In this document: positions 22,719 to 38,443 of the stretch, one piece after another
Numbering within the stretch: the first letter of the stretch is position 1
Layout of the letters: each line of letters opens with the position of its first letter
NCBI GenBank assembly: GCA_022446825.1
Contig: JAKVBY010000043.1
Coordinates: 10,986-74,985 of the forward strand
DNA: 64,000 bases
DNA from: Pirellulaceae bacterium
GTDB lineage: Bacteria > Planctomycetota > Planctomycetia > Pirellulales > Pirellulaceae
Direction: 5' to 3'
Translations under genes and position numbers: made by a program
Notes under the pieces: generated by a model
Told to the model about the DNA's origin: nothing
Seen by the model: the letters and a program-made list of their open reading frames with translations, nothing else
The model's database searches: none

Positions 22719-24387
22719 CTGCAAGCCTCCCCTTCGGCGGAAAGAGCCCTGCAGGTCGATACTGAATGAAAATGACGACGAAGGAGAGAATGAGAACCTT
22801 CCCCCAGATCGTGGAGAAAACGGGTTCCAACGTCTTGGTGAACACTCCCAGGCCCAGTCCAGCACAGACGACACCAACAATTTCTCCCACACCGCCCGTG
22901 ACGACAACTAAAAATGAGTCGACGATATAATTTTGTCCCATGTCCGGTGTGACTCCACCAATTAAGGTCAATGCACAGCCCGCCACACCGGCCAGTCCTG
23001 CTCCGAAAGCGAAGGTAAAACCGTCCTCATAGCGGGTATTCACACCAAGTGCGGAGGCCATTTCACGATTCTGCACCGTGGCGCGCACCAGCAAACCCCG
23101 TTTAGTATGGTTCATCAACCAATAAACAAAAACAACACACCCAGCCGTCAGCCCAATGATAAACAGCCGATTGTACGGCACCTGAAAATCTGGAATGACT
23201 TCCGAACCTCCGACGAGCCAGGTGGGACTGCTCACTCCAATGTTGTCGCCGTAACAAATGCGGACCGCTTGAATCAGTATTAGCCCCACGCCCCAGGTGG
23301 CTAACAACGTCTCAAGTGGGCGCCCATAGAGCCGACGAACGATGAGCCTTTCCATAACCAACCCGACGAATGAGGCAGCCAGAAAGGAAACGGGGAGAGC
23401 TACCAGAAAAAATGCGTTGGCCGGATGATCCGGCATCGAATGGCCAAAGGCCTCTTGAATTTCATAGGTTGCATAAGCGCCAATCATCATCAACTCGCCG
23501 TGCGCCATGTTGATGACACCCATTTGACCAAAGATGATCGATAAACCGAGTGCCATCAGGATCAGCACCGAACCGAGTGACAAACCACTGAAGATATAAC
23601 CAAGAATGCGCACTCGCCGTTGGTAAGAATTGATACTATCTAAGGCCGTTTGGCATACCGCACGGGTTTGTTCATCAAGTGGAGTTGCCTCCGCTGCCAA
23701 CAACGCCTTAATGGGAGCCGTTGCGCGAGCACTCCCCATTTCACCCAGTTCCGTCACCACAGCTCGGCGGTCTTCCACCGAGACAGCACCGTCCATCAAG
23801 CGTATCAAAGCGATACTTTCCTGGGCTCGATATTGGATTTGAGAGTCTTGTTCGCTGGTAAGCAATTCTTCGAGTTCGTCAAGGTATTCCGTGTTCCGCA
23901 GGTCCCCCAGTTTTTTCACTGCGGAGAGCCGCTCGAACTGGTCAAGTGAATAAAGCTGCAGCACGCGGATGGCGTTGACCACATCTCGGCGTTCTTTGCG
24001 CGAGGCAACCAAGCTGCGCAGATCGGCTTTGGCCGCGCGGACCGCAAGGCCATCCTGCATAATTAGCTCGCCCGTCAGCGCATCTCGAAGCTGCAACAAA
24101 TCGGGGCTATCAGCCACCGTTTCTGACATTACCGCGCGCTCTTGCCAGAGCTGGAGACTACCCAAGCGGTACGCTTCTAACGTCTCTGCCACGCGGCCAT
24201 CTTTGCTGGTCGCCAGCGAACTAATCGCCGCCATGCGAACGTCGCTCTGGGCATCGGCGAGTTTTAGAATTCGGGCACGAATGGCTGCTTCTTCAGGTGG
24301 GGCCGCAGTCTGACCCACCGCTTCAAACCACAATAGAAACACCAACACCCAACACGCCAACGCGAACTCACGGAACCCTGCACGCAT
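22711..24387 (-). CDS. urtB: Urea ABC transporter permease UrtB, long form with an N-terminal extracytoplasmic helical-repeat domain of about 260 aa
   Basis: The C-terminal roughly 295 aa form a LivH-like permease (GLSLGSVLILMALGLSIIFGQMGVINMAHGE...). The N-terminal part has one TM/signal segment followed by HEAT-like helical repeats (DVRMAAISSLATSKDGRVAETLE; ERLSAVKKLGDLRNTEYLDELEELL; RRAVVTELGEMGSARATAPIKALL). Confidence 0.88.
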   Translation of the reverse strand: MRAGFREFALACWVLVFLLWFEAVGQTAAPPEEAAIRARILKLADAQSDVRMAAISSLATSKDGRVAETLEAYRLGSLQLWQERAVMSETVADSPDLLQLRDALTGELIMQDGLAVRAAKADLRSLVASRKERRDVVNAIRVLQLYSLDQFERLSAVKKLGDLRNTEYLDELEELLTSEQDSQIQYRAQESIALIRLMDGAVSVEDRRAVVTELGEMGSARATAPIKALLAAEATPLDEQTRAVCQTALDSINSYQRRVRILGYIFSGLSLGSVLILMALGLSIIFGQMGVINMAHGELMMIGAYATYEIQEAFGHSMPDHPANAFFLVALPVSFLAASFVGLVMERLIVRRLYGRPLETLLATWGVGLILIQAVRICYGDNIGVSSPTWLVGGSEVIPDFQVPYNRLFIIGLTAGCVVFVYWLMNHTKRGLLVRATVQNREMASALGVNTRYEDGFTFAFGAGLAGVAGCALTLIGGVTPDMGQNYIVDSFLVVVTGGVGEIVGVVCAGLGLGVFTKTLEPVFSTIWGKVLILSFVVIFIQYRPAGLFPPKGRLADV

Positions 24388-24607: not shown

Positions 24608-25975
24608 TTAGGGACCCCCGGTGGGCGCAGGAAAATCACCATCCGGGTGCAGATAACTGCTGTAGGAGTCTGGAGAAACCAAACCTTCCGTTTGGTTGAT
24701 GATCGAAAACTGACCGTCCGCTAAGATCTCGCCGATATAGACGGGCTTCAGCGTGTGCTGGTTATCGGCATGCATTTCTTTGGGGCCACCAGGAGCATCA
24801 AATTTTAATCCGTACACCGCTTGGCGAACCTGATCGACATCAAAACTACCCGCCTTTTCCACTGCGGCTTTCCAAACATAAACTCCAAAATAAGCCGCTT
24901 CGATCGGATCATCAGTCACGCGTTCACTACCACCTGGCAAACCTTCTTCGGCGCAATAGGCTTTGAAATCAGCAACAAACTTCTGGTTTTCAGGAGTGTC
25001 GATGCTTTGGAAATAATTCCAGGCTGCCAAGTGGCCAACAAGTGGCGGAACGTCCATGGCACGCAGTTCATCTTCAGCAACGGAAAATGCCATGATCGGA
25101 CAATCGGTGGAAGTCAGGCCTTGGTTGGCAAATTCCTTGTAGAAAGGAACATTGCTATCGCCGTTGATCGTCGACAAAATACAGGCGTCGCCACTGCTGG
25201 CAAATTCCTTCACCTTACCCACAATGGTCTGATAGTCCTGGTGATGGAAGGGCGTGTACTCTTCCATAATGTTCTCTTCAGGAACCCCATTTGCCAGCAA
25301 AAATGCTTTGAGCACTTTGTTGGCCGTGCGGGGGAAAACATAGTCGGTGCCCAGCAAGTAGAACTTTTTGCACGCCCCACCCTCTTCACTCATCAAATAT
25401 TCTGCGGCCGGAATGAGCTGTTGGTTCGGACTCGCACCGGTATAGAAAACATTCAGTGACTGTTCCTCTCCCTCATACTGAACAGGGTAGAAGAGCAAAG
25501 CGTTGTTCTCTTCGTAAACCGGCAAGACCGATTTGCGACTGACCGACGTCCAGCAACCAAAGGTGACGGCAACCTCTTCCGTTTTGATTAAATCCTTGGC
25601 TTTTTCCGCAAACAGATCCCAATCACTCGCTGGATCGACCACCACCGGCTCAATTGGCTGTCCCAGAACCCCGCCTGCCGCGTTGATTTCGTCTACGGCC
25701 ATCAGTACGACGTCCCGCAGCGACGTTTCGGAAATGGCCATCGTGCCGGAAAGAGAATGCAGGACACCAATCTTCACCGTTTCTGCAGAACCACTGCCAG
25801 TATCGGAGGCTGGCGCAGCTCCCTCATCGGCAGATGGCGTTGCAACTGCGTCGCTCGAAGCTGAAGAAGCCCCTGCCGGTGCTGCACCGGACCCACCATC
25901 CGCTCCCCCCGAGCATCCAATCATCGTCAGTGGCAGCACCGCCATACAGAGCAGAGAAAAAAGTCGTTTCATCAC
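24608..25975 (-). CDS. urtA: Urea ABC transporter substrate-binding lipoprotein UrtA
   Basis: The ORF is 455 aa. It has the lipobox LTMIGCSGG and a low-complexity A/S/G linker. The body is a LivK/amide-binding fold (IKIGVLHSLSGTMAISE... FGCWTSVSRKSVLPV...), as in UrtA/FmdD proteins. Confidence 0.9.
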   Translation of the reverse strand: MMKRLFSLLCMAVLPLTMIGCSGGADGGSGAAPAGASSASSDAVATPSADEGAAPASDTGSGSAETVKIGVLHSLSGTMAISETSLRDVVLMAVDEINAAGGVLGQPIEPVVVDPASDWDLFAEKAKDLIKTEEVAVTFGCWTSVSRKSVLPVYEENNALLFYPVQYEGEEQSLNVFYTGASPNQQLIPAAEYLMSEEGGACKKFYLLGTDYVFPRTANKVLKAFLLANGVPEENIMEEYTPFHHQDYQTIVGKVKEFASSGDACILSTINGDSNVPFYKEFANQGLTSTDCPIMAFSVAEDELRAMDVPPLVGHLAAWNYFQSIDTPENQKFVADFKAYCAEEGLPGGSERVTDDPIEAAYFGVYVWKAAVEKAGSFDVDQVRQAVYGLKFDAPGGPKEMHADNQHTLKPVYIGEILADGQFSIINQTEGLVSPDSYSSYLHPDGDFPAPTGGP

Positions 25976-26578: not shown

Positions 26579-27901
26579 TTAGAATTGGACCTGAGCACCG
26601 AGTGTGAAGGCATTCACATCGCTTGCACCCGGCGTGTCGAGGTGTGACCAAACGCCAGAAAGCCGAGCATTGTGACCGAACATGATATAGTTCAACTGCA
26701 TGTCGAACTGATCATCCGTGCCACCCGCAGCTGCCACGTGGTCGCGATTGTAGTTCTGATAGCGTCCCATGACCTGGAACTTGCCAGGCATGTTGAAAAT
26801 GCAGAACTCGCGAGGAAACAGATAACTCGACAGCAGGAAGTAGCTATGTCCCTGACGGGGACCACCGGACGGTGGCAATATGACGACGGATCCAGAACCA
26901 TCCACACCATCATTGTCGTCAAAGTTGTAGTACGCACCTTCCAGGGTAACCACACCACAATTGGAAAGTTTACGTTCGAAAAGGGCATCAATGCTCCACC
27001 CGGTATAATCTGCTTGGCCCGGGCCAGCTACAGCATCTAGTGCATCGTGACGATGCATCAGCGTCGCACCAATTGCCAAAATGTCTTTTTCGCCGTAATA
27101 GGTACTTGCATTATAGTAACCGGGTTCTGGATCAAGCAGGTTGACCACCACGCGGCCACTGAACATCAAGTTGTCCGCACCGTTGCTGGGTGGAAGGTTA
27201 CCAGGACCGCCAGAGCTTTCACCTTCGAAAGCACCAACTTGCCACTTGAAAACACCCCCCCCATATTCACCCCAAAGTGCCGCACCATCATCACGACCTT
27301 GGAAGATGTTCGGATAGCCGAATTGAGCAAAGGGAAAATTCCAGGCGTTGAGGTAAAAGGGACCATCAAGGTTCGAGCGGTCACTCGGTGGCAAAAACCG
27401 ACCCATCCACAGATGGAGTGTATCGGTTAATTGAAATTTCAGGATCGCATCCAAGACCATCATTTGATGGTCGTCAAAATCGTTGAAACCCCAATTTTGA
27501 GCATTGGTGATGTCGGTGTTGAATTCAAACCCAATGCGTTTGTGCCCTTGGCCGTTAAAATAGAGCCGTGCGTTGTTGACACTGAAATCTTGGCGAGTGC
27601 CACCGTTGCCATTGGCATTGGCGCCTTCCATGGCCGTATAGCTGGTACGAATTCCCGCGCCAACGCTCAACCAAGTATCTTTTCCCCAAGAAAAACACTT
27701 GCCACAGCTTCCCGCCTTGCTTGTACCAACATGGTGCCGGCCCGAAGCATTCGAAAATTCGAAGGAGACTGGTTGTACAATCTCAGCCAATTCTTGATCA
27801 TGAAGGGAAACATTCGTATTTGTGTCAATACCTTGCCCATGTGCGAATATCGCCTGAGCAAAAATGGCCACGCTAAGAAATAAGGCTTGTCGCAGTTTCA
27901 T
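26579..27901 (-). CDS. Outer-membrane beta-barrel porin (unknown subfamily) adjacent to the urea transporter
   Basis: The start ATG 27901 is preceded by AAGGAGG. The signal peptide reads MKLRQALFLSVAIFAQAIFAHG. The body has alternating amphipathic beta-strand character and is rich in G/N/Y/F/D. The C-terminal residue is Phe (...LGAQVQF), the classical OMP sorting signature. Confidence 0.7.
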   Translation of the reverse strand: MKLRQALFLSVAIFAQAIFAHGQGIDTNTNVSLHDQELAEIVQPVSFEFSNASGRHHVGTSKAGSCGKCFSWGKDTWLSVGAGIRTSYTAMEGANANGNGGTRQDFSVNNARLYFNGQGHKRIGFEFNTDITNAQNWGFNDFDDHQMMVLDAILKFQLTDTLHLWMGRFLPPSDRSNLDGPFYLNAWNFPFAQFGYPNIFQGRDDGAALWGEYGGGVFKWQVGAFEGESSGGPGNLPPSNGADNLMFSGRVVVNLLDPEPGYYNASTYYGEKDILAIGATLMHRHDALDAVAGPGQADYTGWSIDALFERKLSNCGVVTLEGAYYNFDDNDGVDGSGSVVILPPSGGPRQGHSYFLLSSYLFPREFCIFNMPGKFQVMGRYQNYNRDHVAAAGGTDDQFDMQLNYIMFGHNARLSGVWSHLDTPGASDVNAFTLGAQVQF

Positions 27902-28187
27902 TGAATCCTCCTTTAGAACTCGACCGTCGCGCGAATGATCTAGCACCGCCCATGCTAAATACTGCATGCGGTTGCCGGAGAGCTTGCGGGCTATTGCGGA
28001 TCGCCTCACGAACTAGAATCCTTCTAGTCGTTCACAACAGCACATGTCCTATTTTTCGGTTGCTCTACCGCCCCACATCGCTTTGAATCAATCCAGCTGC
28101 CAAGACGCCTCACATTACCTACATTAACGTCCTTTTCTCCCACGGAAGATTACCCCAGCTGGAAGCTTACAGAGGGCATTAGCGCTT

Positions 28188-28898
28188 ATGCCGATTTTGA
28201 CGCCGCCACTTCAAGTCGCTCCGCCGTTACAACAACAATCCAAGCCGTTGTTGATTCTCCAAATCGCAGACTCTGCCTTTCCGATTGGCGGCTTCGCCCA
28301 CAGCAATGGTCTGGAAGCAGCCATGAAATGGGGCCACGTGACTAACCCTTACGACTTGAAACGCTTTGCCCAAGATAGCCTCATGCAAATAGCACGCGGG
28401 AGCCTACCTTTCGTGAGAGACGCGCATCGCGGCCAAGCTTTTGAGGAACTGGATGCACTTTGCAACGCGTTCCTGAATAGTCACATCGCGAATCAGGCCA
28501 GCCGCCGCCAAGGACGAACGCTCTTGAATACGGCAGCCACCGTTTTTGAACTACCGGATCTCGCGTCGTTGCTAGACCTCGTGCAAGACCGGAAGCTCGC
28601 CTGCCATCTAGCTCCCGTATTTGGTCACTTCACACACTGCCTGGATCTGCAGGAACAGGAATCCCTCCAGTTGTTTCTCTTCATGACATTACGTAGCTTG
28701 GTGTCTAGTGCCGTTCGACTCAGCTTGGTCGGTCCCCTCCGAGGGCAAACCATCCAACATGAGTTGAGTAACTATGTAGAAGAGCTTGTGACAAATTTTT
28801 CAGCTGGGAAAATGGCCTCTGTATTTCAAACCGCACCGTTGATTGATTTAATGCAGGCCACACACGACCGCGCCTACTCCCGGCTTTTTCAGAGTTAA
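28188..28898 (+). CDS. ureF: Urease accessory protein UreF
   Basis: The ORF is 236 aa. The motif LLILQIADSAFPIGGFAHSNGLEA matches the UreF N-terminal signature (LQL.DS.FP.G.F.hS.GLE). It is divergent from the porin/urt unit and sits directly upstream of ureG. Confidence 0.85.
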   Translation: MPILTPPLQVAPPLQQQSKPLLILQIADSAFPIGGFAHSNGLEAAMKWGHVTNPYDLKRFAQDSLMQIARGSLPFVRDAHRGQAFEELDALCNAFLNSHIANQASRRQGRTLLNTAATVFELPDLASLLDLVQDRKLACHLAPVFGHFTHCLDLQEQESLQLFLFMTLRSLVSSAVRLSLVGPLRGQTIQHELSNYVEELVTNFSAGKMASVFQTAPLIDLMQATHDRAYSRLFQS

Positions 28899-28910
28899 GA
28901 AGGACATCGC

Positions 28911-29675
28911 ATGCACAACCCCACCGATCATAGCCACGATCACGACCACAGTCACGATCACGACCACGGCCACACGCACGAGCATCTTGAGCATCCTGGC
29001 CGCTTCGCCGAGCGACAACCGATGCTCCCCACCCGAGACTTCGGACAACGCGCTTTTACCGTGGGAATCGGGGGTCCGGTCGGGACTGGTAAAACGGCCT
29101 TGATGCTTTCGCTTTGTCGAGCCCTACGCGACACCTACAACATTGCCGTCGTGACGAATGATATTTTTACGAATGAGGACGCTGAATTTTTGACCACCCA
29201 TGAAGCACTACCCCAAGAACGCATTTCTGCCGTTGAAACCGGCGGGTGCCCGCATGCCGCCATTCGAGAAGATATCTCTGCCAATCTTTTGGCGTTGACA
29301 GAATTGACCGACACCTTTCAGCCACAATTGCTGCTGCTTGAATCGGGCGGTGATAACCTAGCTGCCGACTTTAGTCGTGAATTAGCGGATTATACGATCT
29401 ATGTCATTGACGTCGCCGGTGGTGATAAGATTCCGCGCAAAGGGGGTCCTGGCATCACGCAGTCAGACTTGCTCTTGATCAACAAAATTGATCTAGCCGA
29501 AGCGGTCGGCGCCGATTTGTCGGTCATGGACCGGGATAGCAAAAAAATGCGCGGCGACGGGCCCACTATTTTTGCCCAAATTAAAGCGGACCAAGGGACC
29601 GAGGACGTGGTGAAGCATGTTCTGAAAGCTTGGCAAAAGTCCACGACAGGAGTCGCCGATCCTTCAGCGCTTTGA
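28911..29675 (+). CDS. ureG: Urease accessory GTPase UreG with a His-rich N-terminal extension
   Basis: It has the P-loop GGPVGTGKT, the metal-binding CPH motif ([13 protein letters not shown]), ESGGDNL and the NKIDL G4 motif. The N-terminus is [30 protein letters not shown]. Confidence 0.95.
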
Positions 29676-29896
29676 CACCTGCCCCAGCAACAGCGGCAGA
29701 GCACCGGAGACAAAACGTGGTGAAGCCACAAGCGCACCCATGTGAAACTGTCCAATGCGAAATGTCTTTTCCTATCTTCTGGAAAACTCGCTGGTCTTCG
29801 GGTAAACCCACTGGCAAACCCAAGCTTCCGTCAGAATCAATCATTATCTCCACCGTAGCACTGCACTCATGGAGAGATCAGCGATATCATAGTGGG

Positions 29897-30193
29897 ATGT
29901 TGGTCACACGCTTCTCCCCATTGATTCGTCACTGTTTTAAAAATCGATTTAGTGAGCTGACCGAGCCACAACGACGTGGTTGGCCATCCATCGCTACGAG
30001 CCGTGACAAACTGATTGTTATTCTTTCCAGATTGGAAAAAACACGGGCAGTATTTCTCGCCTGCCTGGAGCAGCTTTGTCGAAATTGTCTGAAGGATGAG
30101 TTGAAGCGTGAGAGTCAAATCATCTATATGCCGCCACTGCAGGCGCTGAGTACCGGCATTGAAGACAATCTGCAAACACCGCTTCATGGATGA
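29897..30193 (+). pseudogene. Relic of the N-terminus of an Lhr-type DEAD/DEAH-box helicase (about 98 codons, Walker A destroyed, truncated)
   Basis: MLVTRFSPLIRHCFKNRFSELTEPQRRGWPSIATSRDKLIVILSRLEKTRAVFLACLEQL...IIYMPPLQALSTGIEDNLQTPLHG* is colinear with the start of Lhr-like helicases. From memory, the E. coli Lhr sequence is FSPATRDWF..F..PT.VQ...W......ALVIAPTGSGKTLAAFL.ALDRL...ILYISPIKALGTDVQRNLQIPLKG. The P-loop APTGSGKT is replaced by LSRLEKT, and the frame ends after about 100 of an expected 1,400 or more residues. Confidence 0.55.
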
Positions 30194-30279
30194 CCACCAT
30201 GACCGCATTACTGGCCAATGATTTTGTATGACATTCAATCCAACTGATGAATGTGGCGAAGTCCGTAAGGAACAAAACC

Positions 30280-33200
30280 ATGTCGAACATCTTCGTTTCG
30301 ATCGTTTTTTGTACCCTGTTGCTCGATCAAACAGATGCCAATCAGAAGACCGATCGCCCCATCACTGTGGCAGCCGAACAACAGAAGCAGATCGACGACG
30401 CTATCAAACAGTTAGGCAGCCGCCGATTTGCCGAACGACAAAAAGCGTTTCGCTTTCTACAAAACGCGGGTATCTCCGCTGAGCCATCCCTTAAGAACGC
30501 TGCTCAGAGCAACGACCCCGAAATTCGCGCGCGTGTGAAACAACTACTGTCTGACCTGCGTTATGGGATTAGCCCTAAAACTAAACCAGAGATCGCTGCC
30601 CTCATCCGACGTTACCGCGACGGCACTCCGAAAGAACGCGACGTAGCATTCGATCGCCTCTTGAAAAAACAAGAGTTCAAAATTTTGCAGCGCATTATCC
30701 AACTGGAAGAGCAACCAGAGATTCGCCGTCAATTGGTAGAGCGACTCTTTAAAGACGAGCTTGTCGTTGACCGATTCATTGAACTCAATGCAATTCGCAG
30801 CTTAGTCGACACCATTGGACGGGATGCCGATCCTCGCTGGCGGCGGGAAATGATCGCTCGGGTATTATTTTCACCTCGCATGTTGAAGGCTCTCATCGAC
30901 AAAGAACAACTTGGCACGATCGAACAATTTTTACTCAACGAAGAATCAGAAACAACACGCGCAGAACTGCTGTCATTACTTTTTCAGAATCAGGCCGCCT
31001 TGGGTACGATCATAACAAGTGGCCAAGTTGATTTTGCGATTCAATTAGTAACTTCCTTTGAGGCCGATAAAAGCCGCGAGCGTTTTGCGCAACAGCTCTT
31101 GGGAGTTGCCGTCTTTCCCGCCACGATGGTTAAAGCAAAGCGTCTCGATGACTTATTCCACTTTGTGGAACGCAACCTAACCAAGGAAACAAGGCCAATC
31201 GTACTCGAGACCTTGTTCACGCAGTCCGAATTCACCAAGGCAATTTTAGAAACCCATGGTTTGGAAAAACTAATTGCCTTAATCCAACGAGAAAAAGATC
31301 CTACAACTCGCGGGAAGCTATTCGGTCGCATTGCGGTTGGCACCACCGTTCGAACGCATCTTTCAAAGCAAGGAAATACCTCTGCGCCCATTGAGTGGGC
31401 TCGTGCTGAAAAAGACCTTGTTGCCCGTCGGGCGTTCCTGGATGTACTGTTTCAACAACGTTTCTTTATGCGCATGCGCCACGACGCCGGTGTTCTACAA
31501 GCCATGTGGAAAATCATCGAAGAGGACGAAAACATTAAATGGCAAGCCTCTGCATTAGCGCAGGTTCTGCCACACGTCCGCACCGCAAATCTGTTTCAGG
31601 ACGAGAATTCGATTCAATGGATTCTACGTTTAATTCGCGATGTCAATCCCCAAGATCGCAGCTCGCTCCTGAGTCAGATCGTGGCAAATCAATATCTAAG
31701 AAGCCAGCTGTTGGTGCTCGGGAAATTCGAAGACATCTTAACCCTCGCTCGCAAAGAACCGGTCGGAACACGTGGGACAACGCTACGGTCCTTGATGTCG
31801 GACCCGCGCATTGCCCAGTTACTTCAGGCAAAAGGCAACCTCCAACAGTTACTTACAATCGCCCGTGAAGAAACAGATGCCAAATCGCGTCAAGACTACT
31901 TGATGGGTATATTCCAGAACCCATCGATCATGAGAGCGTTGGTCGCAGCCAAACACTTTGATGCCATCAAGGAACTGATCAGTGAGACCACAGACACGGG
32001 GGACCATGCGTTGCTGTACGCAACCTTCCTGTCGACTCAAGCCATTGCGGACGAAATGCACAATCGAGGCCAACTCGATTCACTCATTAGCTATGCTCAA
32101 ATGCTCGATGACTTAGACGCTCGTCGAACCTACCTACAACAACTGTTTCGCAATTATCACGCCGTCCGTCTTTTAGTCGACCGGGAACACTTTGACACCC
32201 TGTTGAAAATGTCGAACAGTGATCCGGAGGCTGCACAACGATTACAGCTCAAAAACTCACTCTTGGTAAACCCTCGAGTGCTAGACCATCTAACCACGGA
32301 AAAACAAATTGCAACGTTGATTACCTTTGTCACCCAAGAAGCTACCAACAACATGCGTTCGACATTCCTGCAACGCATCATGAATCACCCCGGTGTGATG
32401 GAGGCCATTGTCAAGGAAAACTATTTTGACGACTTGGTCGAAATCGTAGCCGGAGAGGTGCAATCGTATCGACGTGCAGCGCTCGTTGCTGCGCTGATCC
32501 GCAATGTGACTTTAACAAAGCACCTCTCCCAACAAAAACAACTTTCCCGACTCATTCAACTGACCACTTCGGAGCTCGATCAAAACGCGCGTCGGCAAAT
32601 GCTAAACGCCTTTGTCTCCAACCCAGAAACCCTGGCGATTTGGATTAAAACAGGCAAGCTTGACGTGTTATGGGAATTATTTGCCTCACAAAAACCATTG
32701 TCGGCACGCGCACAGTTGCTCGGACAATTACTTACTCGAGTCGAGGTTCTGCAAAAACTATCGGAAGAAAATCGCCTCGAGGTGGTTCTCACATCCTTTT
32801 CAAATCCAGCCAACAAAACCGCTCGTGACCTCTTTGCCCAACAACTCTTCGGAAATCCCCAGGCCGTCTCCTACTTAATTGAAAAAGGACACTTTGCGGC
32901 CCTGTTAGAAAGCGCCGAATCGGCCTCCACCTCTCAAATGCGTGCACATTTAACCGCACGCCTGCTAAGTGTTCCCCAAGCGATTGACTTACTGGTAGAA
33001 CGCGGCGTCTTAGTCGAATTTATGAATCGAATCGGCCAAGACAGTGAGCTCAAAGCCCGTCGCCAGTTCGTGTCATCGTTAATGGGCAACCAGCATCTAC
33101 TCAAGGTTTTGGCGGATCACCAACAATTACAGCGAGTCTTCGACTTAATCGCTGCTGACAAAGATATCTCCTGGCGACGGCAACAGTTGATGCAATTGAT

Positions 33201-36200
33201 GGTGCGACCCAGCGGCCTGCGATACTTGCTTAAAAACAACCAGTTTGAAAGCACACTCGACTTGGCAATTTCTGAACCGGACACCAATCGACAGCAGCAA
33301 TTTTTTCGACAACTCTTTAATGACTCGCAAATTGTCAACGTATTGGCACAGCAAGGGCTCATCGACACATTACTCAGGCGATTAAAAAAAGAGCCTAACC
33401 AAAAATACTTTCGCGATTTTTTAATGGCGATTGCCACATCGTCAGAGGCTTCTCATTGGCTCCTGAAGCAGAACCGTTTCGCCTTGTTAATGGATACTCT
33501 AGAAAGCAATTCCAACCAAGCACAACGCACGCAGTACCTGCGGCGCATCATTTATCAACGCAATGTCATTTCCGAGGCGGTCTCTGCGGGGCATCTTGAT
33601 CGCTTACTAACACTCGTCCAAAACGTCGCCGATCCTCAGCAACGTGTTCAGATCCTGACTTATTTCATCGCCATCCCTGAGGTGCTACGGTTACTGGAAA
33701 CAAACCATGGTAAGGAGGACGCTCTCCAACGGCTTCTCGGTAAGGAAAGTGAGCAGTTACGCAGTTTTCTCGTCCAGCAACTCGCTCAAAACTCAATTGC
33801 GACACGGGAACTTATGAATCGAGGGTTATTCGAAATTCTTGTTAAAAAGTTACTCGAAGAGCAGGAGGTGGTCGTGCGATCACGGAATCTCGGCCAGCTC
33901 TTTGCATCATCAATGATTGCCCACGGTCGTGCGCGTGCGCAACAGCTCGATTGGTATGTGGAGTTTGCCAAAGTCGAAAATCAAATTGCCCGCCGAGAGT
34001 ACCTCAAATTGGCGCTACAAAACTCGACAGCTTTGAATGCTCTCAGCAAAAACAAACGCCTCCATGAAATCATTGCACTCTGGCATAGTGAAACAGATCC
34101 TCTGGCTTGGCGACTTCAATTATCTCATTTGTTGCTTGCACCTGCAGTCATCGAAGCGTTCTCCGAGAACGGCGTACTTCAAATGCACACCGACCGCCTC
34201 TTTCGAGAGGCAACGCTGACCGAAAAACGCGATTTCATAAACCGTTTACTCAGTCACACAGAACCCCTAAATGCATTAATTCAAAAAGGCTACTACCTGC
34301 AAATTTGCAGGGTGATCGAGGCAGAAACGAATGTGCGATCGCGACAATATCTGTGGACACGGTTTCTAAGTTCTGAGTCTGCAATTCGACATACCCTAGA
34401 GCACAAAGATGGCGATATTCTGGACCAATTAGTGGGAAGTGATTCGGATCTAAGCATGCGATCCCAACAAATTCGCAACCTCCTCTATCAGCCAGTTACC
34501 ATTCAAACCATTGCTCAGTACGGGAAAATTGAGGTGGTCATTAAAGCAATCCTGGATTTACCTAGAAAAAAAGACCAAGTCGACCTAATGGTGCGCACTC
34601 TCGCAACTCCCGAAGTGCTCACTCATTTAGAACAAGATGAAAATCCAGCAGGATTGCTTCCACGACTGGTAGACTTTTTTGATGATGGCGTGGCTGCTTT
34701 GTTTGTTGAGCAACTTACGGAGAACACACAAACGAGACAATTCTTAACCAAACACGATCACTTAGTCGCGTTGCTAACTATATCCGCTGCCATCAACTCG
34801 TCGAGGACGCGCTCGCAAGCTGTCGGGAACCTGCTGGCCGATCCAACCGTCACACAAACGCTCGACGAGAATCAAGTTCTGGACCTCTTTCGACAATTTG
34901 CCAAGCAGGACGACGGTAGCGCACGCCGAGCTTTTCTTCAACGTGCATTGAGCAATCACCATATGCTCATGGTGCTAAAACAAAACGCAGAGCTCACCGA
35001 TGTTCTTGCCTTTAGCCTGCGGGAATCTCAGGCTGGCTGGCGAGCTAGTCTCTTACGTGAGTTGCTCATTTCCCCAACGGTGGTTGAACATTTCGGTCAA
35101 AAACAAGTGCTTCAAACGCAATTTGAGTCGGCCATCGAAAAAAGCCTGGCCGCGGACCAAGCAAGTTTTTTAGAGAATCTCATCAGCCAACCCACAACCA
35201 TTCGCGCCTACCTGAAATATGGAATGTTCGAGTCACTTGTGACGACTATCAAGGCATTCCCTGATGCCTCTCGAGGTCGCCCACTTTTGGCGCAAATCAT
35301 TTCTCTGCCCGAAAGCACCGACTATCTTCCGATTCCACGCATGGCAGCCATTTTCACTGCTTTACTGACCGAAGAACCAAACCCGTCCCAACGCATGCTG
35401 ATCATTCGCGCCGTACTTATGAACTCCGAGATACTGGAAATGTTGCTACAGCAAGGTGCCTGCGATCGCTTTCTCGACACGTTCCAAAAGGTTGATGGGA
35501 CTTCAGATATTTCTGAAATGGCAACTTTCTTAGTCCACCCCGTCACACTCAGACATCTCGCAAGCGAGCAAAAAGTAGACGTTGTTTATCAGTTGGCGAT
35601 CGAGACTTCGAACTCCTCCACTCGAGCACGCCTTGTCGGAGAACTTTTGGGGAATCCACGTGTCGTTACCTTTTGCGCCAACCATGGATTAGCCCATCAA
35701 ATACCGCGTTTGATTCAAAGTGGTCTGGATGAGAGGGAACGCGAGAACTTTGCTCGGAGAGCACTGCTCAATCCAACCTTGCATCAAGAACTCGCGACCC
35801 GAAACGAAAGTAATGCCTTACTGAAACTTTTGGAAATTCCTGGGAACGAGGATATTCGCCAACACGCACGGCAACAAATTCTGTACGCTTCAACCGGAAT
35901 CATTCCATCCTTGCTGAGCGAGGATGGTGGAATCGAACGCGCGAAAAATCTGCTTGACAAATATGCTACCGATGATCTCGGACGTGCACGGTTGGCTGCC
36001 TTTCTTCTACTCACTGGCGAGATTGACGCACGCATTCAAGCAATTCAGCAGCAGCTAAAGACAGAGGAGAATGCAGACCAATTTAGACTCTTAACCTACC
36101 TGTTACGTGCCAAATCAGATCATCCGGGAACACTTGCAGCTGCGCGCAAATCACTGGATACCATCCTCCTAAGAGCGGTTTTAACCGAGCAGGGCGGTTG

Positions 36201-38205
36201 GTCCGAAGCGGCGGCAACAGGGCTGGACGACTTTAGTCAGTTGCCTGTTAAAATCCCGCGATTTTCGTCATCATCCCAAGCTTATCCCCAAATTGAACGA
36301 TTGGGTTACAACGCCTCTTTTTGCCGACTCGCCAAACAGAACGATCCGTTCGCTGCAAGCATCGCACAAATCAGCGCCCTGGCCGATTCAAATCCCACAG
36401 ACAAACAGCTTGTCTTCCATTGTGCCGAAGCGTTATTGATCAATGGAGAAGTCGACAAAGCGATCCAAATACTTGATCACAACGACCCCTGTCGTGCATT
36501 CGCGATCTGGCGTGATCAACTAAAATTCGAGCAGGCGTTGGCATTAATCGACTGGCAAGACGCGTCCACTATTTCTCGAACGTGGTACAACAAGCTACCT
36601 GTGCTATCAGAAAAAACTAACGGCCCGGTAGTGGGTAAATTCCGATTTGCCTTACAGGTCACAGCGTTGCTGCGCCAGATGGGCCAGGAAGAGGATGCCG
36701 AAAAACTGTTAGACTTCCTTGAACTTCACCTACCTAATTTGCCTCTGGACACACACAACCGAGATGTCCGTACCATCTGCTGGGGACATCTCTGCAAACA
36801 CCTAGTCGGTCGGGGCGAATTTGAACGAGCTTTTAAGGCAGCTTCCCGTAGTATCACCAACAGGAAGGTCATCCCATCGGTACTCTTCAATCTCTATGGA
36901 AATCGTGGCTGGGAAAACGCATCAACTCAATATCGTGAAGCCTCTGCATGGTGGCTTTTCTTTCAACAACATACGCCGGAAATTTCGCTCGACACAACTT
37001 TGCGCAAAATTCACGATATTTTGACCCCGCAGATCGTGAAAAAGGACGCCCCTGATTGGTTGAATTTTCATGACCTCGCGGCACAAGCAGTCCAGCTTGC
37101 CGATACCTTAAAGGAATCTCAACACGACTCCTATCTCTTCGGCATCGGCGCCACCTGTGCCAAGCGAAATGAGAACGAATTGGCGGAACAGGCTTTGCGG
37201 GCTGCCACGGCAACAATTCCGGACGCTTACTATCTACTCGGAGACTTGCTTGGCCAGAACGGTCGCTGGTTAGCAGCGGCAGAAATCTACGGTCGTTTAT
37301 GGAAGATCTCACATGCTGAGCTGCCTGCCCTATATCTACAAGGGCACGCTTTAGAGAAGGCGGAACAAAACAAAACCGGAAAACGCTTAAAACAAAAGGC
37401 TAGTCTTTGGGCGATTCATTCCATGTCGCGACATCAGTTGGCGCTCAAACTTTGGCAACTCGGGATGGTCGAAGATGCCACAGCACAATGGGAACTGCTC
37501 CTAAAAACATCACCCTTTGAGCACCGAGAGTTGAATCTGGCAACACGTTTTTGGGCACTCGCGAATGAAGCAACGGCGGACAATTCCACCCTCGCTCAAC
37601 ACTGGGATTTATATCTATTGGGAATTCATCGAACAACCTTCAATTTCAGGGAAGAAAGCAGCTATCTCCAAATACCGGCGTTTCCCCATCGATTCCGTGC
37701 AGCCTCCGCAATCCAGCGCGGTGACATGGAGACCGCCACAGGAGAAATCAGACGGTGTCTGAATTTCACACCCCTGAATTCTGATTTAGGCGTCTTTTTT
37801 GTTACCACACTCGAGGCAGCTGGCCAGTCAGATGTCGCCACACAAATCTATCAAAGTATGTGGCAGGCCTTAACTCAACAATGCGACAAATATCCCCGAT
37901 CCGCAATCCTTCATAACCACGCTGCTTGGCTAGCAGCACGTTGCCGTCGCGATCTGGACATGGCACTCCACCACGCCCAGCGTGCAACCGCTTTAACACC
38001 GGAAAGACCCGCCTTTCTCGATACGCTTGCAGAGGTACACTTTCAACGCGGTGACCGTGGAACGGCAGTGCAGGTAGCCAAAGCAGTCTTAAAAATTGTG
38101 CCTCAAAACAAAAAGTTCAAGCAGCGATTGCAACACTTCGAGCATGACGAGTTACCTCCGAGCATCGATCCCGAGTCTGCCACACCATCTCCACTAAATA
38201 ATTAA
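30280..38205 (+). CDS. Giant exported alpha-solenoid protein (2,641 aa): N-terminal HEAT-like unit, about 45 x 39-aa ARM/HEAT-like repeats, TPR-like C-terminal region
   Basis: It is an uninterrupted 7.9-kb ORF. The likely start is ATG 30280, with AAGGA about 10 nt upstream; the ORF-track start is 30247. The signal-like N-terminus reads MSNIFVSIVFCTLLLDQTDA. The repeat array is described in the repeat feature. The C-terminus has TPR-like hairpins (e.g. AYYLLGDLLGQNGRWLAAAEIYGRL; RPAFLDTLAEVHFQRGDRGTAVQVAKAVLKIVPQN). Confidence 0.85.
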   Translation: MSNIFVSIVFCTLLLDQTDANQKTDRPITVAAEQQKQIDDAIKQLGSRRFAERQKAFRFLQNAGISAEPSLKNAAQSNDPEIRARVKQLLSDLRYGISPKTKPEIAALIRRYRDGTPKERDVAFDRLLKKQEFKILQRIIQLEEQPEIRRQLVERLFKDELVVDRFIELNAIRSLVDTIGRDADPRWRREMIARVLFSPRMLKALIDKEQLGTIEQFLLNEESETTRAELLSLLFQNQAALGTIITSGQVDFAIQLVTSFEADKSRERFAQQLLGVAVFPATMVKAKRLDDLFHFVERNLTKETRPIVLETLFTQSEFTKAILETHGLEKLIALIQREKDPTTRGKLFGRIAVGTTVRTHLSKQGNTSAPIEWARAEKDLVARRAFLDVLFQQRFFMRMRHDAGVLQAMWKIIEEDENIKWQASALAQVLPHVRTANLFQDENSIQWILRLIRDVNPQDRSSLLSQIVANQYLRSQLLVLGKFEDILTLARKEPVGTRGTTLRSLMSDPRIAQLLQAKGNLQQLLTIAREETDAKSRQDYLMGIFQNPSIMRALVAAKHFDAIKELISETTDTGDHALLYATFLSTQAIADEMHNRGQLDSLISYAQMLDDLDARRTYLQQLFRNYHAVRLLVDREHFDTLLKMSNSDPEAAQRLQLKNSLLVNPRVLDHLTTEKQIATLITFVTQEATNNMRSTFLQRIMNHPGVMEAIVKENYFDDLVEIVAGEVQSYRRAALVAALIRNVTLTKHLSQQKQLSRLIQLTTSELDQNARRQMLNAFVSNPETLAIWIKTGKLDVLWELFASQKPLSARAQLLGQLLTRVEVLQKLSEENRLEVVLTSFSNPANKTARDLFAQQLFGNPQAVSYLIEKGHFAALLESAESASTSQMRAHLTARLLSVPQAIDLLVERGVLVEFMNRIGQDSELKARRQFVSSLMGNQHLLKVLADHQQLQRVFDLIAADKDISWRRQQLMQLMVRPSGLRYLLKNNQFESTLDLAISEPDTNRQQQFFRQLFNDSQIVNVLAQQGLIDTLLRRLKKEPNQKYFRDFLMAIATSSEASHWLLKQNRFALLMDTLESNSNQAQRTQYLRRIIYQRNVISEAVSAGHLDRLLTLVQNVADPQQRVQILTYFIAIPEVLRLLETNHGKEDALQRLLGKESEQLRSFLVQQLAQNSIATRELMNRGLFEILVKKLLEEQEVVVRSRNLGQLFASSMIAHGRARAQQLDWYVEFAKVENQIARREYLKLALQNSTALNALSKNKRLHEIIALWHSETDPLAWRLQLSHLLLAPAVIEAFSENGVLQMHTDRLFREATLTEKRDFINRLLSHTEPLNALIQKGYYLQICRVIEAETNVRSRQYLWTRFLSSESAIRHTLEHKDGDILDQLVGSDSDLSMRSQQIRNLLYQPVTIQTIAQYGKIEVVIKAILDLPRKKDQVDLMVRTLATPEVLTHLEQDENPAGLLPRLVDFFDDGVAALFVEQLTENTQTRQFLTKHDHLVALLTISAAINSSRTRSQAVGNLLADPTVTQTLDENQVLDLFRQFAKQDDGSARRAFLQRALSNHHMLMVLKQNAELTDVLAFSLRESQAGWRASLLRELLISPTVVEHFGQKQVLQTQFESAIEKSLAADQASFLENLISQPTTIRAYLKYGMFESLVTTIKAFPDASRGRPLLAQIISLPESTDYLPIPRMAAIFTALLTEEPNPSQRMLIIRAVLMNSEILEMLLQQGACDRFLDTFQKVDGTSDISEMATFLVHPVTLRHLASEQKVDVVYQLAIETSNSSTRARLVGELLGNPRVVTFCANHGLAHQIPRLIQSGLDERERENFARRALLNPTLHQELATRNESNALLKLLEIPGNEDIRQHARQQILYASTGIIPSLLSEDGGIERAKNLLDKYATDDLGRARLAAFLLLTGEIDARIQAIQQQLKTEENADQFRLLTYLLRAKSDHPGTLAAARKSLDTILLRAVLTEQGGWSEAAATGLDDFSQLPVKIPRFSSSSQAYPQIERLGYNASFCRLAKQNDPFAASIAQISALADSNPTDKQLVFHCAEALLINGEVDKAIQILDHNDPCRAFAIWRDQLKFEQALALIDWQDASTISRTWYNKLPVLSEKTNGPVVGKFRFALQVTALLRQMGQEEDAEKLLDFLELHLPNLPLDTHNRDVRTICWGHLCKHLVGRGEFERAFKAASRSITNRKVIPSVLFNLYGNRGWENASTQYREASAWWLFFQQHTPEISLDTTLRKIHDILTPQIVKKDAPDWLNFHDLAAQAVQLADTLKESQHDSYLFGIGATCAKRNENELAEQALRAATATIPDAYYLLGDLLGQNGRWLAAAEIYGRLWKISHAELPALYLQGHALEKAEQNKTGKRLKQKASLWAIHSMSRHQLALKLWQLGMVEDATAQWELLLKTSPFEHRELNLATRFWALANEATADNSTLAQHWDLYLLGIHRTTFNFREESSYLQIPAFPHRFRAASAIQRGDMETATGEIRRCLNFTPLNSDLGVFFVTTLEAAGQSDVATQIYQSMWQALTQQCDKYPRSAILHNHAAWLAARCRRDLDMALHHAQRATALTPERPAFLDTLAEVHFQRGDRGTAVQVAKAVLKIVPQNKKFKQRLQHFEHDELPPSIDPESATPSPLNN
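30721..35970 (+). repeat. Protein-level tandem array: about 45 units of about 39 aa (117 nt) inside the giant gene
   Basis: Hand alignment starts at residue 159 of the ORF (IRRQLVERLF...) and the 45th unit starts at residue 1870 (IRQHARQQIL...). The mean period is 38.9 aa. The consensus is roughly x-R-x-x-F/L-L-x-x-L-F/L-x-N-P-x-x-hydrophobic-x-x-L-hydrophobic-x-x-G-x-F/L-D-x-L-L-x-L-hydrophobic-x-x-E-x-D-x-x. The units are strongly diverged at nucleotide level. Confidence 0.8.
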
Positions 38206-38443
38206 AAGGCGATGCGAGAAGCGATTGCTCTGCCAAAGCGCAGAAGGCGTTAACAGAGCGTTTTATGCATTTCTGACAACTTGGCCTGTCCCTCACGGAC
38301 ACGCTTCATCCCATAAAGCATAGTGACATGGCGACCATCGAAATCGAGGAGTTGCCTAGATAGACGAAAAAGCAGCCGTTCATGAGTCTATCCTGCAAAT
38401 TCCGCAGGCCAATCCACTTGCCGACTTCTGATAGCCGACTCGG

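What the first reader, a model, noticed from the sequence alone, without database searches (positions are those of the whole stretch)
30247..38205. Giant exported protein made of about 45 strictly in-register 39-residue repeats, with no recognisable catalytic domain
One 7.9-kb ORF encodes about 2,641 aa with a signal-like N-terminus.

From residue 159 to about residue 1908 the sequence can be written out by hand as 45 consecutive rows with a mean period of 38.9 aa. Consecutive examples:
- ARRQMLNAFVSNPETLAIWIKTGKLDVLWELFASQKPLS
- ARAQLLGQLLTRVEVLQKLSEENRLEVVLTSFSNPANKT
- ARDLFAQQLFGNPQAVSYLIEKGHFAALLESAESASTSQ
- MRAHLTARLLSVPQAIDLLVERGVLVEFMNRIGQDSELK
- ARRQFVSSLMGNQHLLKVLADHQQLQRVFDLIAADKDIS

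Nearly every unit keeps an Arg at position 2, Leu/Phe at positions 5-6 and 9-10, and N/P around positions 12-13. The register almost never slips over about 1,750 residues, yet the units are highly diverged at DNA level. That argues for an old array under selection for geometry (a very long rigid superhelix), not recent replication slippage.

The three-helix 39-aa pattern looks ARM/HEAT-like. The last roughly 740 aa read as TPR-like hairpins. The first roughly 100 aa contain a PBS-lyase/HEAT-like unit (RRFAERQKAFRFLQNAG...SNDPEIRARVKQLL).

A secreted ARM-type solenoid of this size has no assigned function that I know of. It could be an envelope scaffold, ruler or docking platform. It also sits where a helicase gene appears to have been destroyed (next finding).
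Basis: seen in the sequence. Interest (0 to 1): 0.75.

Follow-up and report, generated by a model that had tools for sequence, protein, structure and literature searches.

The report
Giant exported ARM-like repeat scaffold protein
This 2,652-residue planctomycete protein is an all-helical scaffold with no enzyme domain, made when one helical unit of a widespread ~900-residue protein of Planctomycetes and relatives was amplified into 45 in-register 39-residue repeats; its function is untested.

Summary
ORF 30247-38205 (+) encodes 2,652 aa. Residues 160-1909 form 45 consecutive units of 39 aa (five are 38 aa). Periodicity is z≈20, units are about 16% identical to each other, and there is no DNA-level repeat.

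AlphaFold2 gives three helices per unit (pLDDT 90.5). The closest solved folds are armadillo (ARM) proteins. No Pfam or NCBIfam repeat family matches the array. The C-terminal ~740 aa is a long TPR superhelix. The N-terminus is a Sec-type signal followed by a weak HEAT-like module. No catalytic domain was found.

New here: the protein belongs to an uncharacterised family spread across Planctomycetota, Verrucomicrobiota and Lentisphaerales. Most members are 850-1,000 aa, built as signal + HEAT-like module + TPR module. The short form carries about 1.4 units at the junction of the two modules (hhalign 94.8%). One clade with Pirellulaceae/Planctomycetaceae labels amplified that element to about 19-48 units, with modes near 28, 38 and 45-48.

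The array is under purifying selection (dN/dS 0.10) and shows a 4/8-unit higher-order structure. Conserved unit positions are core or capping residues, not a surface groove. No gene neighbour is conserved.

Best reading: a rigid extension that separates two conserved interaction modules in the cell envelope. This function is inferred, not shown.

The parts
30247..38205 (+). Whole gene: 2,652 codons plus stop. The alternative start M12 at 30280 gives 2,641 aa.
   Evidence: An in-frame stop lies just upstream of M1. The segment MN[VM]AKS[VA]RNKT is conserved in the ortholog contig L084.
30247..30339 (+). Predicted Sec-type signal peptide, residues 1-31. The n-region has K5, R8 and K10; the h-region is IFVSIVFCTLLL; the c-region is DQTDA, possibly cleaved before N32.
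   Evidence: Read from the sequence. All 20 family members examined have a 12-14 aa hydrophobic N-terminal segment. No SignalP run was possible.
30379..30723 (+). N-terminal HEAT-like module, residues ~45-159: RRFAERQKAFRFLQNAG...DPEIRARVKQLL...YGI.P. It is the most conserved part across the long-array clade (identity 0.41).
   Evidence: Pfam HEAT_2 is sub-threshold (E 1.8e-3, 18.9 bits against a cut-off of 27.7). A homologue scores 25 bits. Three of the family sequences scanned match at E<=0.01. Conservation.
30724..35973 (+). Array of 45 ARM-like three-helix units of 39 aa (five of 38 aa), residues 160-1909.
   Evidence: periodicity and register; AF2 and Foldseek; dN/dS 0.10; unit lags 4, 8 and 16 significant, 0 of 2,000 permutations.
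35974..38202 (+). C-terminal TPR superhelix module, residues 1910-2652, shared with the ~900-aa short forms. It ends in the family motif QLxRF...P.
   Evidence: Pfam TPR_16 at 2027-2076, ANAPC3 at 2312-2375, TPR_2 at 2590-2621. Alignments A7-A10. AF2 and Foldseek of short homologue P0148.

Best explanation
The gene encodes a non-enzymatic, all-alpha solenoid that is most likely exported by the Sec pathway. It has a signal peptide, a HEAT-like N-module, 45 ARM-like three-helix units and a roughly 740-aa TPR superhelix.

It is a long-array member of an uncharacterised family found in Planctomycetota, Verrucomicrobiota and Lentisphaerales. The usual form of that family is about 900 aa: signal + HEAT-like module + TPR module. 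In one clade with Pirellulaceae/Planctomycetaceae labels, the helical element that joins the two modules was amplified to about 19-48 copies, partly by duplication of 4- and 8-unit blocks.

Shown: the anatomy, the fold class, the family relationship, purifying selection on the array, and the strict 39-aa unit length.

Inferred: the array acts as a rigid extension (arm or spacer) that holds the two conserved end modules apart. From general knowledge of ARM solenoids (about 1 nm rise per repeat), that would be roughly 40 nm for 45 units. The end modules, above all the TPR superhelix, would bind as yet unknown envelope or periplasmic partners.
For: Periodicity and register. Over 30 long proteins, 803 unit-to-unit offsets are 80% exactly 39 and 96% within 38-40.

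Fold: AF2 of residues 626-1054 gives pLDDT 90.5, pTM 0.81 and three helices per unit. Foldseek places ARM proteins on top, E 8.5e-6.

No enzyme domain.

Family: an exhaustive HMMER search finds 143 proteins at E<=1e-3, with about 22-48 units by array span between constant ends. Of 274 relatives found in one genome per GTDB species, 79 loci were kept, and most encode 850-1,000 aa proteins with 0-1 unit.

The short-form junction is homologous to about 1.4 units: hhalign 94.8%, E 5e-8.

The clean-array proteins form one clade in a tree of the C-module. In that tree, arrays of 43 or more units appear in three places and arrays of 35-40 units in three places.

Selection: dN/dS is 0.10 in the array, with no indel against the 91% ortholog.

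Conserved unit positions are hydrophobic core, helix caps (N11, P12, D36) and a turn (G22). Surface positions are not conserved among orthologs, at 0.08-0.2 identity. Over deep divergence the end modules are more conserved than the array: 0.41 and 0.33 against 0.27.

A signal-like N-terminus is present family-wide.
Against: No experiment, localisation data or partner is known. No gene neighbour is conserved in 83 loci, so the function rests on architecture alone.

Between close orthologs the array has a lower dN/dS (0.10) than the end modules (0.18-0.19). An inert spacer would not be expected to behave this way, so the result is compatible with many unit-specific contacts.

TM-scores to ARM proteins are only about 0.4.

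The signal peptide was judged by eye only.
Confidence: 0.5

Rival explanations
1. Multivalent binding platform. As in importin-alpha or beta-catenin, the concave face of the ARM-like array binds extended peptides or many different partner proteins along its length. The array is then the functional surface, not a spacer.
For: ARM-type fold. Purifying selection on the array is stronger than on the end modules between close orthologs (dN/dS 0.10 against 0.18-0.19). Each unit is distinct, and the first ~19 units are collinear between orthologs.
Against: No conserved polar ladder was found on helix 3 or on any other surface position. Conservation among orthologs sits at core positions. Unit number changes freely within the clade, from 19 to 48, which is hard to reconcile with a fixed set of unit-specific partners. 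No pairwise mean identity of orthologous units stands out (0.19-0.37).
Confidence: 0.25
2. Cytoplasmic or membrane-anchored scaffold. The N-terminal hydrophobic segment is not a cleaved signal. Either the solenoid works inside the cell, or it is tethered to the cytoplasmic membrane by an uncleaved signal anchor.
For: Several homologues as called lack a positively charged n-region. Long TPR and ARM scaffolds in the PDB are mostly intracellular eukaryotic proteins.
Against: The hydrophobic stretch is only 12-14 aa, lies at the extreme N-terminus in every member, and in the window is preceded by K5, R8 and K10 and followed by a small-residue motif (T-D-A). There are only 3 Cys in 1,750 array residues. 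This is all weak evidence.
Confidence: 0.15
3. Code-type polymer binder. As in PPR, OPR, PUF or TALE arrays, each unit reads one element of a nucleic acid or other linear polymer.
For: The unit profile hits designed PPR proteins in the PDB (5i9d, E 2e-22). The period of 39 aa is close to the 35-40 aa of PPR and OPR repeats.
Against: No single stretch in those hits is significant; the score is the sum of identical consensus repeats, and designed ARM proteins score similarly. The units have three helices, not two. The array is electrically neutral: 207 K+R against 206 D+E. There are no hypervariable specificity positions on an otherwise conserved repeat, since the units are about 16% identical throughout. 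A signal peptide is present.
Confidence: 0.03
4. Non-functional or decaying ORF, or a runaway selfish repeat expansion without function.
For: No annotated function and no conserved neighbours. The gene sits next to a truncated helicase gene.
Against: The ORF is intact over 7.9 kb. dN/dS is 0.13 overall with dS 0.33, and there is no indel against the ortholog. The same gene order is found in 14 metagenome contigs. The family is conserved across 143 cluster representatives. No DNA-level repeats are present.
Confidence: 0.02

Closest known systems
Armadillo (ARM) repeat proteins: importin-alpha, beta-catenin, PF16/SPAG6, designed ArmRPs (PDB 4rv1, 8fzk, 7sqc, 5mfl)
   Same: Tandem units of about 40 aa, each with three helices, stacked into a continuous solenoid. 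These are the best Foldseek matches to the 11-unit model (E 8.5e-6 to 4e-4, probability 1.00). Designed ARM proteins are also hit by the unit profile.
   Different: No match to Pfam Arm or any other repeat model. TM-score is only about 0.4 and rmsd about 10 A, so the curvature differs. Helix 1 is the longest helix here (about 12 aa against 9 and 9-11), whereas from general knowledge canonical ARM has a short H1 and a long H3. There is no conserved Asn/Trp ladder on H3. The array has 45 units, against 10-12 in the classical proteins, and the protein is bacterial with a signal peptide.
Long TPR superhelical scaffolds: OGT TPR domain, Ctr9, TTC7B, Ski3, IFT-A TTC21B, Naa15
   Same: The C-module has Pfam TPR hits. 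The AF2 model of short homologue P0148 is an all-alpha superhelix of about 48 helices, and its best Foldseek matches are these scaffolds (E ~2e-8).
   Different: TM-scores are 0.14-0.27, so only the generic TPR architecture is shared. Those proteins are eukaryotic and intracellular. No enzyme domain is attached here.
Bacterial periplasm-spanning TPR/helical connectors and length-setting proteins: LpoA, BcsC/PelB/AlgK TPR regions, Lpp, injectisome and phage tape-measure rulers (from general knowledge, not tested here)
   Same: Exported helical proteins whose length matters for bridging or setting a distance. This family shows a natural length series between constant ends: 0-1, then about 19-48 units.
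   Different: No homology was detected. There is no associated synthase, porin or secretion-system gene. The ruler role is entirely inferred.
Membrane-coat-like proteins of the PVC (Planctomycetes-Verrucomicrobia-Chlamydiae) superphylum, with a beta-propeller plus an alpha-solenoid (PMC2799638); alpha-solenoid enrichment in Planctomycetes (PMC3837014)
   Same: A large alpha-solenoid protein in a planctomycete. Alpha-solenoids are reported to be unusually frequent in this phylum.
   Different: No beta-propeller: both models are all-alpha. A signal peptide is present. The repeat type is different.

Membership tests
Armadillo repeat (Pfam PF00514 / ARM fold) | Tandem ~40-aa units, each of three alpha-helices, forming a solenoid | tested here: met
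   The AF2 model has 33 helices in 11 units, with pLDDT 90.5 and pTM 0.81.
Armadillo repeat (Pfam PF00514 / ARM fold) | Sequence match to the Arm profile | tested here: not met
   hmmscan of the whole protein (E<=1) and of an 11-unit tile (E<=10) lists no Arm or HEAT family in the array.
Armadillo repeat (Pfam PF00514 / ARM fold) | Structural superposition on solved ARM proteins | tested here: inconclusive
   ARM proteins are the top Foldseek hits (probability 1.00, E 8.5e-6), but TM-score is 0.35-0.43 and rmsd about 10 A. The local fold is shared; the global curvature differs.
Armadillo repeat (importin-alpha type cargo binder) | Conserved polar (Asn/Trp) ladder on the helix-3 surface that binds extended peptides | tested here: not met
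   The conserved unit positions are hydrophobic core, N11/P12/D36 caps, the G22 turn and R1. Helix-3 surface positions show 0.13-0.19 identity among orthologs.
Tetratricopeptide repeat (TPR) | Match to TPR profiles above the curated cut-off, and a helical-hairpin superhelix | tested here: met
   In the C-module, TPR_16 scores 33.2 bits (cut-off 32.7) and ANAPC3 27.5 bits (cut-off 27.2). TPR_14 matches 8 of the 11 family sequences scanned and TPR_2 matches 7. The homologue model is all-alpha and its closest folds are OGT and Ctr9 TPR scaffolds.
HEAT / PBS-lyase HEAT-like repeat | Match to HEAT_2 or HEAT_PBS profiles above the cut-off in the N-module | tested here: inconclusive
   The window N-terminus scores HEAT_2 E 1.8e-3, 18.9 bits, below the 27.7 cut-off. 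Homologue L063 scores 25 bits. Three family sequences match at E<=0.01.
PPR / OPR / TALE-type modular nucleic-acid binders | Two-helix units, basic binding surface, near-identical repeats with a few specificity positions | tested here: not met
   Units have three helices. Net array charge is +1 over 1,750 aa. Units are 16% identical. The PDB PPR hits have no individually significant stretch.
PVC membrane-coat-like proteins | N-terminal beta-propeller followed by an alpha-solenoid | tested here: not met
   No beta structure appears in either model, and there is no WD40 or propeller Pfam hit.
Sec-exported protein (signal peptidase I substrate) | Positively charged n-region, 7-15 aa h-region, small residues at -3 and -1 | tested here: inconclusive
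   Residues 1-31 fit by inspection: K5/R8/K10, IFVSIVFCTLLL, T-D-A. A comparable hydrophobic segment is present in all 20 members checked. No signal-peptide predictor was available.
Uncharacterised PVC-wide 'signal + HEAT-like + TPR' family (defined here) | Collinear homology of both the N-module and the ~740-aa C-module | tested here: met
   Alignments A8-A10 show 22-39% identity to their first sequence. tblastn of the last 330 aa gives E 2e-64 to 2e-34 in the 79 loci kept. The profile search with the C-module recovers short forms P0148-P0152 at E 4e-235 to 2e-115.

The most novel reading that the evidence does not exclude
The family is a natural length series of an envelope 'ruler' or strut. 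The same two end modules are separated by 0-1, about 20, about 28, about 38 or about 45-48 rigid 39-aa units. Unit number is adjusted by block duplication and sets a physical distance in the unusually wide and variable cell envelope of Planctomycetes, for example between two membranes or between a membrane and a surface structure. This window carries one of the longest versions, near 40 nm.
Probability: 0.15. Interest if true: 0.75.

Novelty: new variant of a known kind. Interest (0 to 1): 0.45.

Why it matters
The result defines a previously undescribed 39-aa, three-helix repeat type. It also links a set of 1,700-2,770-aa 'hypothetical proteins' to a conserved ~900-aa family of exported TPR proteins in Planctomycetota, Verrucomicrobiota and Lentisphaerales, for which no function is annotated.

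For protein evolution it is a clean case. An ancient array (about 16% identity between units, no DNA repeats) has kept its unit length almost invariant: 80% of 803 offsets are exactly 39. It also still shows a 4/8-unit duplication hierarchy, and its copy number has changed repeatedly between constant ends.

If the array is a spacer, the family offers a natural length series to test how envelope dimensions are set in planctomycetes. If it is a binding platform, it would be one of the largest bacterial ARM-type platforms. Either way the present evidence is architectural only.

Tried and rejected
- A pseudo-alignment of 57 overlapping 16-unit windows failed. MAFFT staggered the identical overlaps (A2, 1,768 columns). 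I replaced it with 11 non-overlapping in-phase tiles (A4).
I shifted that row by one codon.
- The search for related loci with the 21-protein full-length alignment A6 found no stretch conserved enough to search with. I replaced it with the C-terminal alignment A7.
- The three word-indexed homology searches were swamped by their 8,000-candidate limit. They returned only 4, 3 and 5 true relatives. Only the exhaustive HMMER search and the genome scan showed the real family size.
- The gene-neighbourhood analysis of 83 loci was negative. The most frequent neighbour clusters occur in at most 10 loci. The two largest include genes with PSCyt/PSD1 and DUF1501 annotations, which from general knowledge are multi-copy planctomycete families.
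- Promoter and terminator scans at both gene ends gave nothing above shuffles.
- The exact window protein is not on record in the assembly index. The organism is known only from metagenome contigs.
- The PPR similarity seen in the PDB profile search was considered and rejected, for the reasons given in the rival explanations.
- 'Putative anonymous antigen-1' (8c4a, 8bt6; E 0.004) is an apicomplexan protein and a weak chance-level hit.
- I considered whether unit number changes in steps of exactly 8. I did not claim it: the modes are about 28, 38 and 45-48, so the steps are about 10 and 7-10.


Full report
**Observation.** The ORF 30247..38205 on the + strand is real and encodes 2,652 aa from the first ATG. 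An in-frame stop lies just before M1. The 11 extra residues (MNVAKSVRNKT) are conserved, with K/R retained, in a 91%-identical ortholog contig. I therefore keep 30247 as the start.

BLOSUM62 autocorrelation of residues 150-1910 peaks at lags 39 (z 19.6) and 78 (z 20.1), with harmonics up to 234. The last 740 aa and the first 160 aa show no periodicity. A unit HMM finds 45 units starting at residues 160 to 1871. Of the 44 offsets, 39 are exactly 39 residues and five are 38. Units are only 16% identical on average, 39% at most. Tandem Repeats Finder reports nothing in the gene, and the direct-repeat search reports only one 27-nt, two-copy family at 70% identity.

**Fold of the unit.** I ran AlphaFold2 on residues 626-1054 (11 units) with an in-phase alignment of non-overlapping tiles from this protein and three homologues. 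The model has pLDDT 90.5, pTM 0.81 and 33 helices, which is three per unit. In unit numbering, H1 runs from position 37 of the previous unit to position 10, H2 covers positions 12-20, and H3 covers positions 24-34.

The conserved polar or special residues sit at structural positions. N11-P12 is the H1/H2 break. G22 is the H2/H3 turn. D36 is a helix cap. R1 (present in 78% of units) lies in the first turns of H1. The other conserved positions are hydrophobic.

Foldseek against the PDB places ARM proteins on top: designed ARM protein OR497 (4rv1, E 8.5e-6), importin-alpha, the ciliary ARM proteins PF16/SPAG6 and designed ArmRPs. TM-scores are only about 0.4 and rmsd about 10 A, so the local fold is ARM-like but the curvature differs.

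At sequence level, no Pfam or NCBIfam repeat family matches the array. The unit profile hits designed PPR and designed ARM proteins in the PDB, but only through summed weak matches to identical consensus repeats, with no individually significant stretch.

**The ends.** Pfam TPR_16 and ANAPC3 pass their cut-offs in the C-terminal 740 aa. The N-terminal module gives only sub-threshold HEAT_2 hits. Residues 1-31 look like a Sec signal: K5/R8/K10, then IFVSIVFCTLLL, then T-D-A. Every one of the 20 family members I checked has a comparable 12-14 aa hydrophobic N-terminal segment. No predictor was available, so export remains an inference.

**The family.** The word-indexed searches gave only a handful of relatives. 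An exhaustive HMMER search of 1.84 billion cluster representatives with the single-unit profile found 143 proteins at E<=1e-3, and 41 at E<=1e-30. Full-length members have a constant N-module and a constant 700-830-aa C-module. Between them lie about 22-30, 38-40 or 44-48 units by array span.

A scan of one genome per GTDB species with the last 330 aa found 274 relatives. The 79 loci kept carry labels of Pirellulaceae, Gemmataceae, Thermoguttaceae, Phycisphaerales, Tepidisphaeraceae, Verrucomicrobiota and Lentisphaerales, plus a few odd bin labels. When I reconstructed the ORFs, most were 850-1,000 aa with 0-1 detectable unit. Only 11 were 1.95-2.74 kaa with 20-45 units, and all of these come from bins labelled Pirellulaceae, Planctomycetaceae, Planctomycetales, Planctomycetota or just 'bacterium'.

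The short form has the same signal, the same HEAT-like module and the same TPR module joined directly. Sources name these proteins 'hypothetical protein' or 'TPR repeat protein'.

AF2 of a short form (P0148, 899 aa) gives an all-alpha protein of about 48 helices with pLDDT 87.6 and pTM 0.82. Its closest PDB folds are long TPR scaffolds such as the OGT TPR domain, Ctr9, TTC7B, Ski3, IFT-A TTC21B and Naa15, at low TM-scores. No catalytic domain is present anywhere.

**Origin of the array.** A profile of 1.4 array units (H3-H1-H2-H3) aligns to the junction region of 29 short forms over 51 columns, with hhalign probability 94.8% and E 5e-8. The single-unit profile alone gave 64%. The unit HMM gives one weak hit just after the N-module in many short forms. 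The array is therefore best read as an amplification of an element already present once in the short form.

In a neighbour-joining tree of the C-module, the clean-array proteins form one clade, next to short forms that have 1-2 units. Within that clade, arrays of 43 or more units appear in three places and arrays of 35-40 units in three places, so copy number has changed repeatedly. A second, more divergent group of long proteins includes the only named hit, Rubripirellula obstinata LF1_29970. It also has 39-aa periodicity, but weaker (z 4-9).

Inside the window protein, unit similarity is significantly raised at unit lags 4, 8 and 16 (0 of 2,000 permutations) and depressed at lag 1. This points to an alternating two-unit pattern and to growth by 4- and 8-unit block duplications. 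The first ~19 units are collinear with those of the 28-unit homologues. The extra units lie in the distal half.

**Selection.** Against the 91%-identical ortholog (L084) there is no indel in 2,641 codons. dS is 0.33. dN/dS is 0.10 in the array, 0.175 in the N-module and 0.19 in the C-module. Across 30 long proteins, 803 adjacent unit offsets are 80% exactly 39 and 96% within 38-40. Unit length and sequence are therefore both constrained, which rules out a decaying ORF and recent slippage.

Across the whole long clade the order reverses. The N-module (identity 0.41) and the C-module (0.33) are more conserved than units 1-19 (0.27). Within units, ortholog conservation sits at core positions, while exposed positions are at 0.08-0.2. 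The array is electrically neutral, with 207 K+R against 206 D+E.

**Context.** No gene neighbour is conserved around family members in 83 loci. In the window the gene follows ureF, ureG and a 187-codon ORF. Residues 83-186 of that ORF match only the first ~110 positions of Lhr-type helicases (E 8.7e-15). The same ureF-ureG-fragment-giant order is found on 14 metagenome contigs. Downstream of the stop codon, the window and the ortholog contig share no similarity.

**Interpretation.** What is shown:
- an intact, selected, all-alpha protein made of a signal, a HEAT-like module, 45 ARM-like units and a TPR superhelix;
- membership of a widespread but uncharacterised family in Planctomycetota, Verrucomicrobiota and Lentisphaerales;
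- a lineage-specific, repeatedly resized array between constant ends.

What is inferred: the array is a rigid extension that separates two interaction modules in the envelope. That would be roughly 40 nm for 45 units, if the rise per unit is like that of ARM proteins. This figure comes from general knowledge and was not measured here.

The main rival is that the array is itself a multivalent binding surface. The low dN/dS of the array between close orthologs fits this rival. The lack of any conserved surface positions and the free variation in unit number argue against it. A PPR/TALE-like code reader and a pseudogene are effectively excluded.

**Novelty and score.** Alpha-solenoids are known to be frequent in Planctomycetes (PMC3837014), and large genes are common there. 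A large helical repeat protein is therefore not surprising in itself. What is new is the repeat type, the family assignment, and the natural length series with near-invariant unit length. I rate it a new variant of a known kind, with interest 0.45.

Noticed in passing
window 29630-30193 (+); homology in ~29876-30190: This ORF matches only the first ~110 of ~877 positions of Lhr-type ATP-dependent helicases (NCBIfam PRK13767, E 8.7e-15). It stops 54 nt before the giant gene, so the rest of the helicase is absent. The fragment is called as a 158-aa gene in the four contigs shown of the 14 metagenome contigs that carry the identical UreG protein, all with the same gene order. Its last 97 nt are conserved in L084.
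   Followed up: partly
window 22711-24387 (-), with 24608-25975 (-), 26579-28009 (-), 28188-29675 (+): An ABC permease (BPD_transp_2) carries N-terminal HEAT_PBS/HEAT_2 repeats at residues 153-231. It sits beside a Peripla_BP_5 binding protein, a porin O/P-like gene and ureF/ureG. From the gene content this looks like a urea or amide uptake and urease-maturation cluster, with an unusual HEAT-permease fusion.
   Followed up: no
P0005 (ENA contig of 1,342 nt): This 313-aa protein is identical to the window protein from M12 for 261 residues. It then continues into a nucleoside-diphosphate-kinase-like tail (PF00334). This is probably an assembly chimera.
   Followed up: partly
window 38203-38320 against L084 8020-8138: The window and the 91% ortholog contig lose all similarity immediately after the stop codon. 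L084 carries a short tandem motif there (GCCAGAGCAAAGCG-like).
   Followed up: no
extreme C-terminus of family members (window residues ~2626-2640; alignments A7, A9): A motif Q-L-x-R-F-x-x-x-P-L-P lies at or near the C-terminal end in most long and short forms. It could be the last helix cap or a recognition tail.
   Followed up: no
L016 + L020 (JAWKTM01), L010 + L028 (PBSM01): Two metagenome-assembled genomes (MAGs) carry both a short form (916 and 938 aa) and a repeat-bearing form (2,008 aa, and a 549-aa ORF with 7 units). The short copies fall in a different C-module clade, so there appear to be at least two paralogous lineages.
   Followed up: partly
L004 17979-25034 (Rubripirellula obstinata): A gene called as 8,275 aa with no Pfam hit on record lies 3 kb downstream of the family member P0004.
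   Followed up: no
P0007 (478 aa, WD40 Pfam hits) and P0006 (613 aa): The HEAT-like N-module also occurs at the N-terminus of a WD40 protein (42% identity over ~57 aa) and of a 613-aa helical protein that ends in the same ...YLDTL... TPR motif. The N-module may be a mobile module in planctomycete proteins.
   Followed up: no
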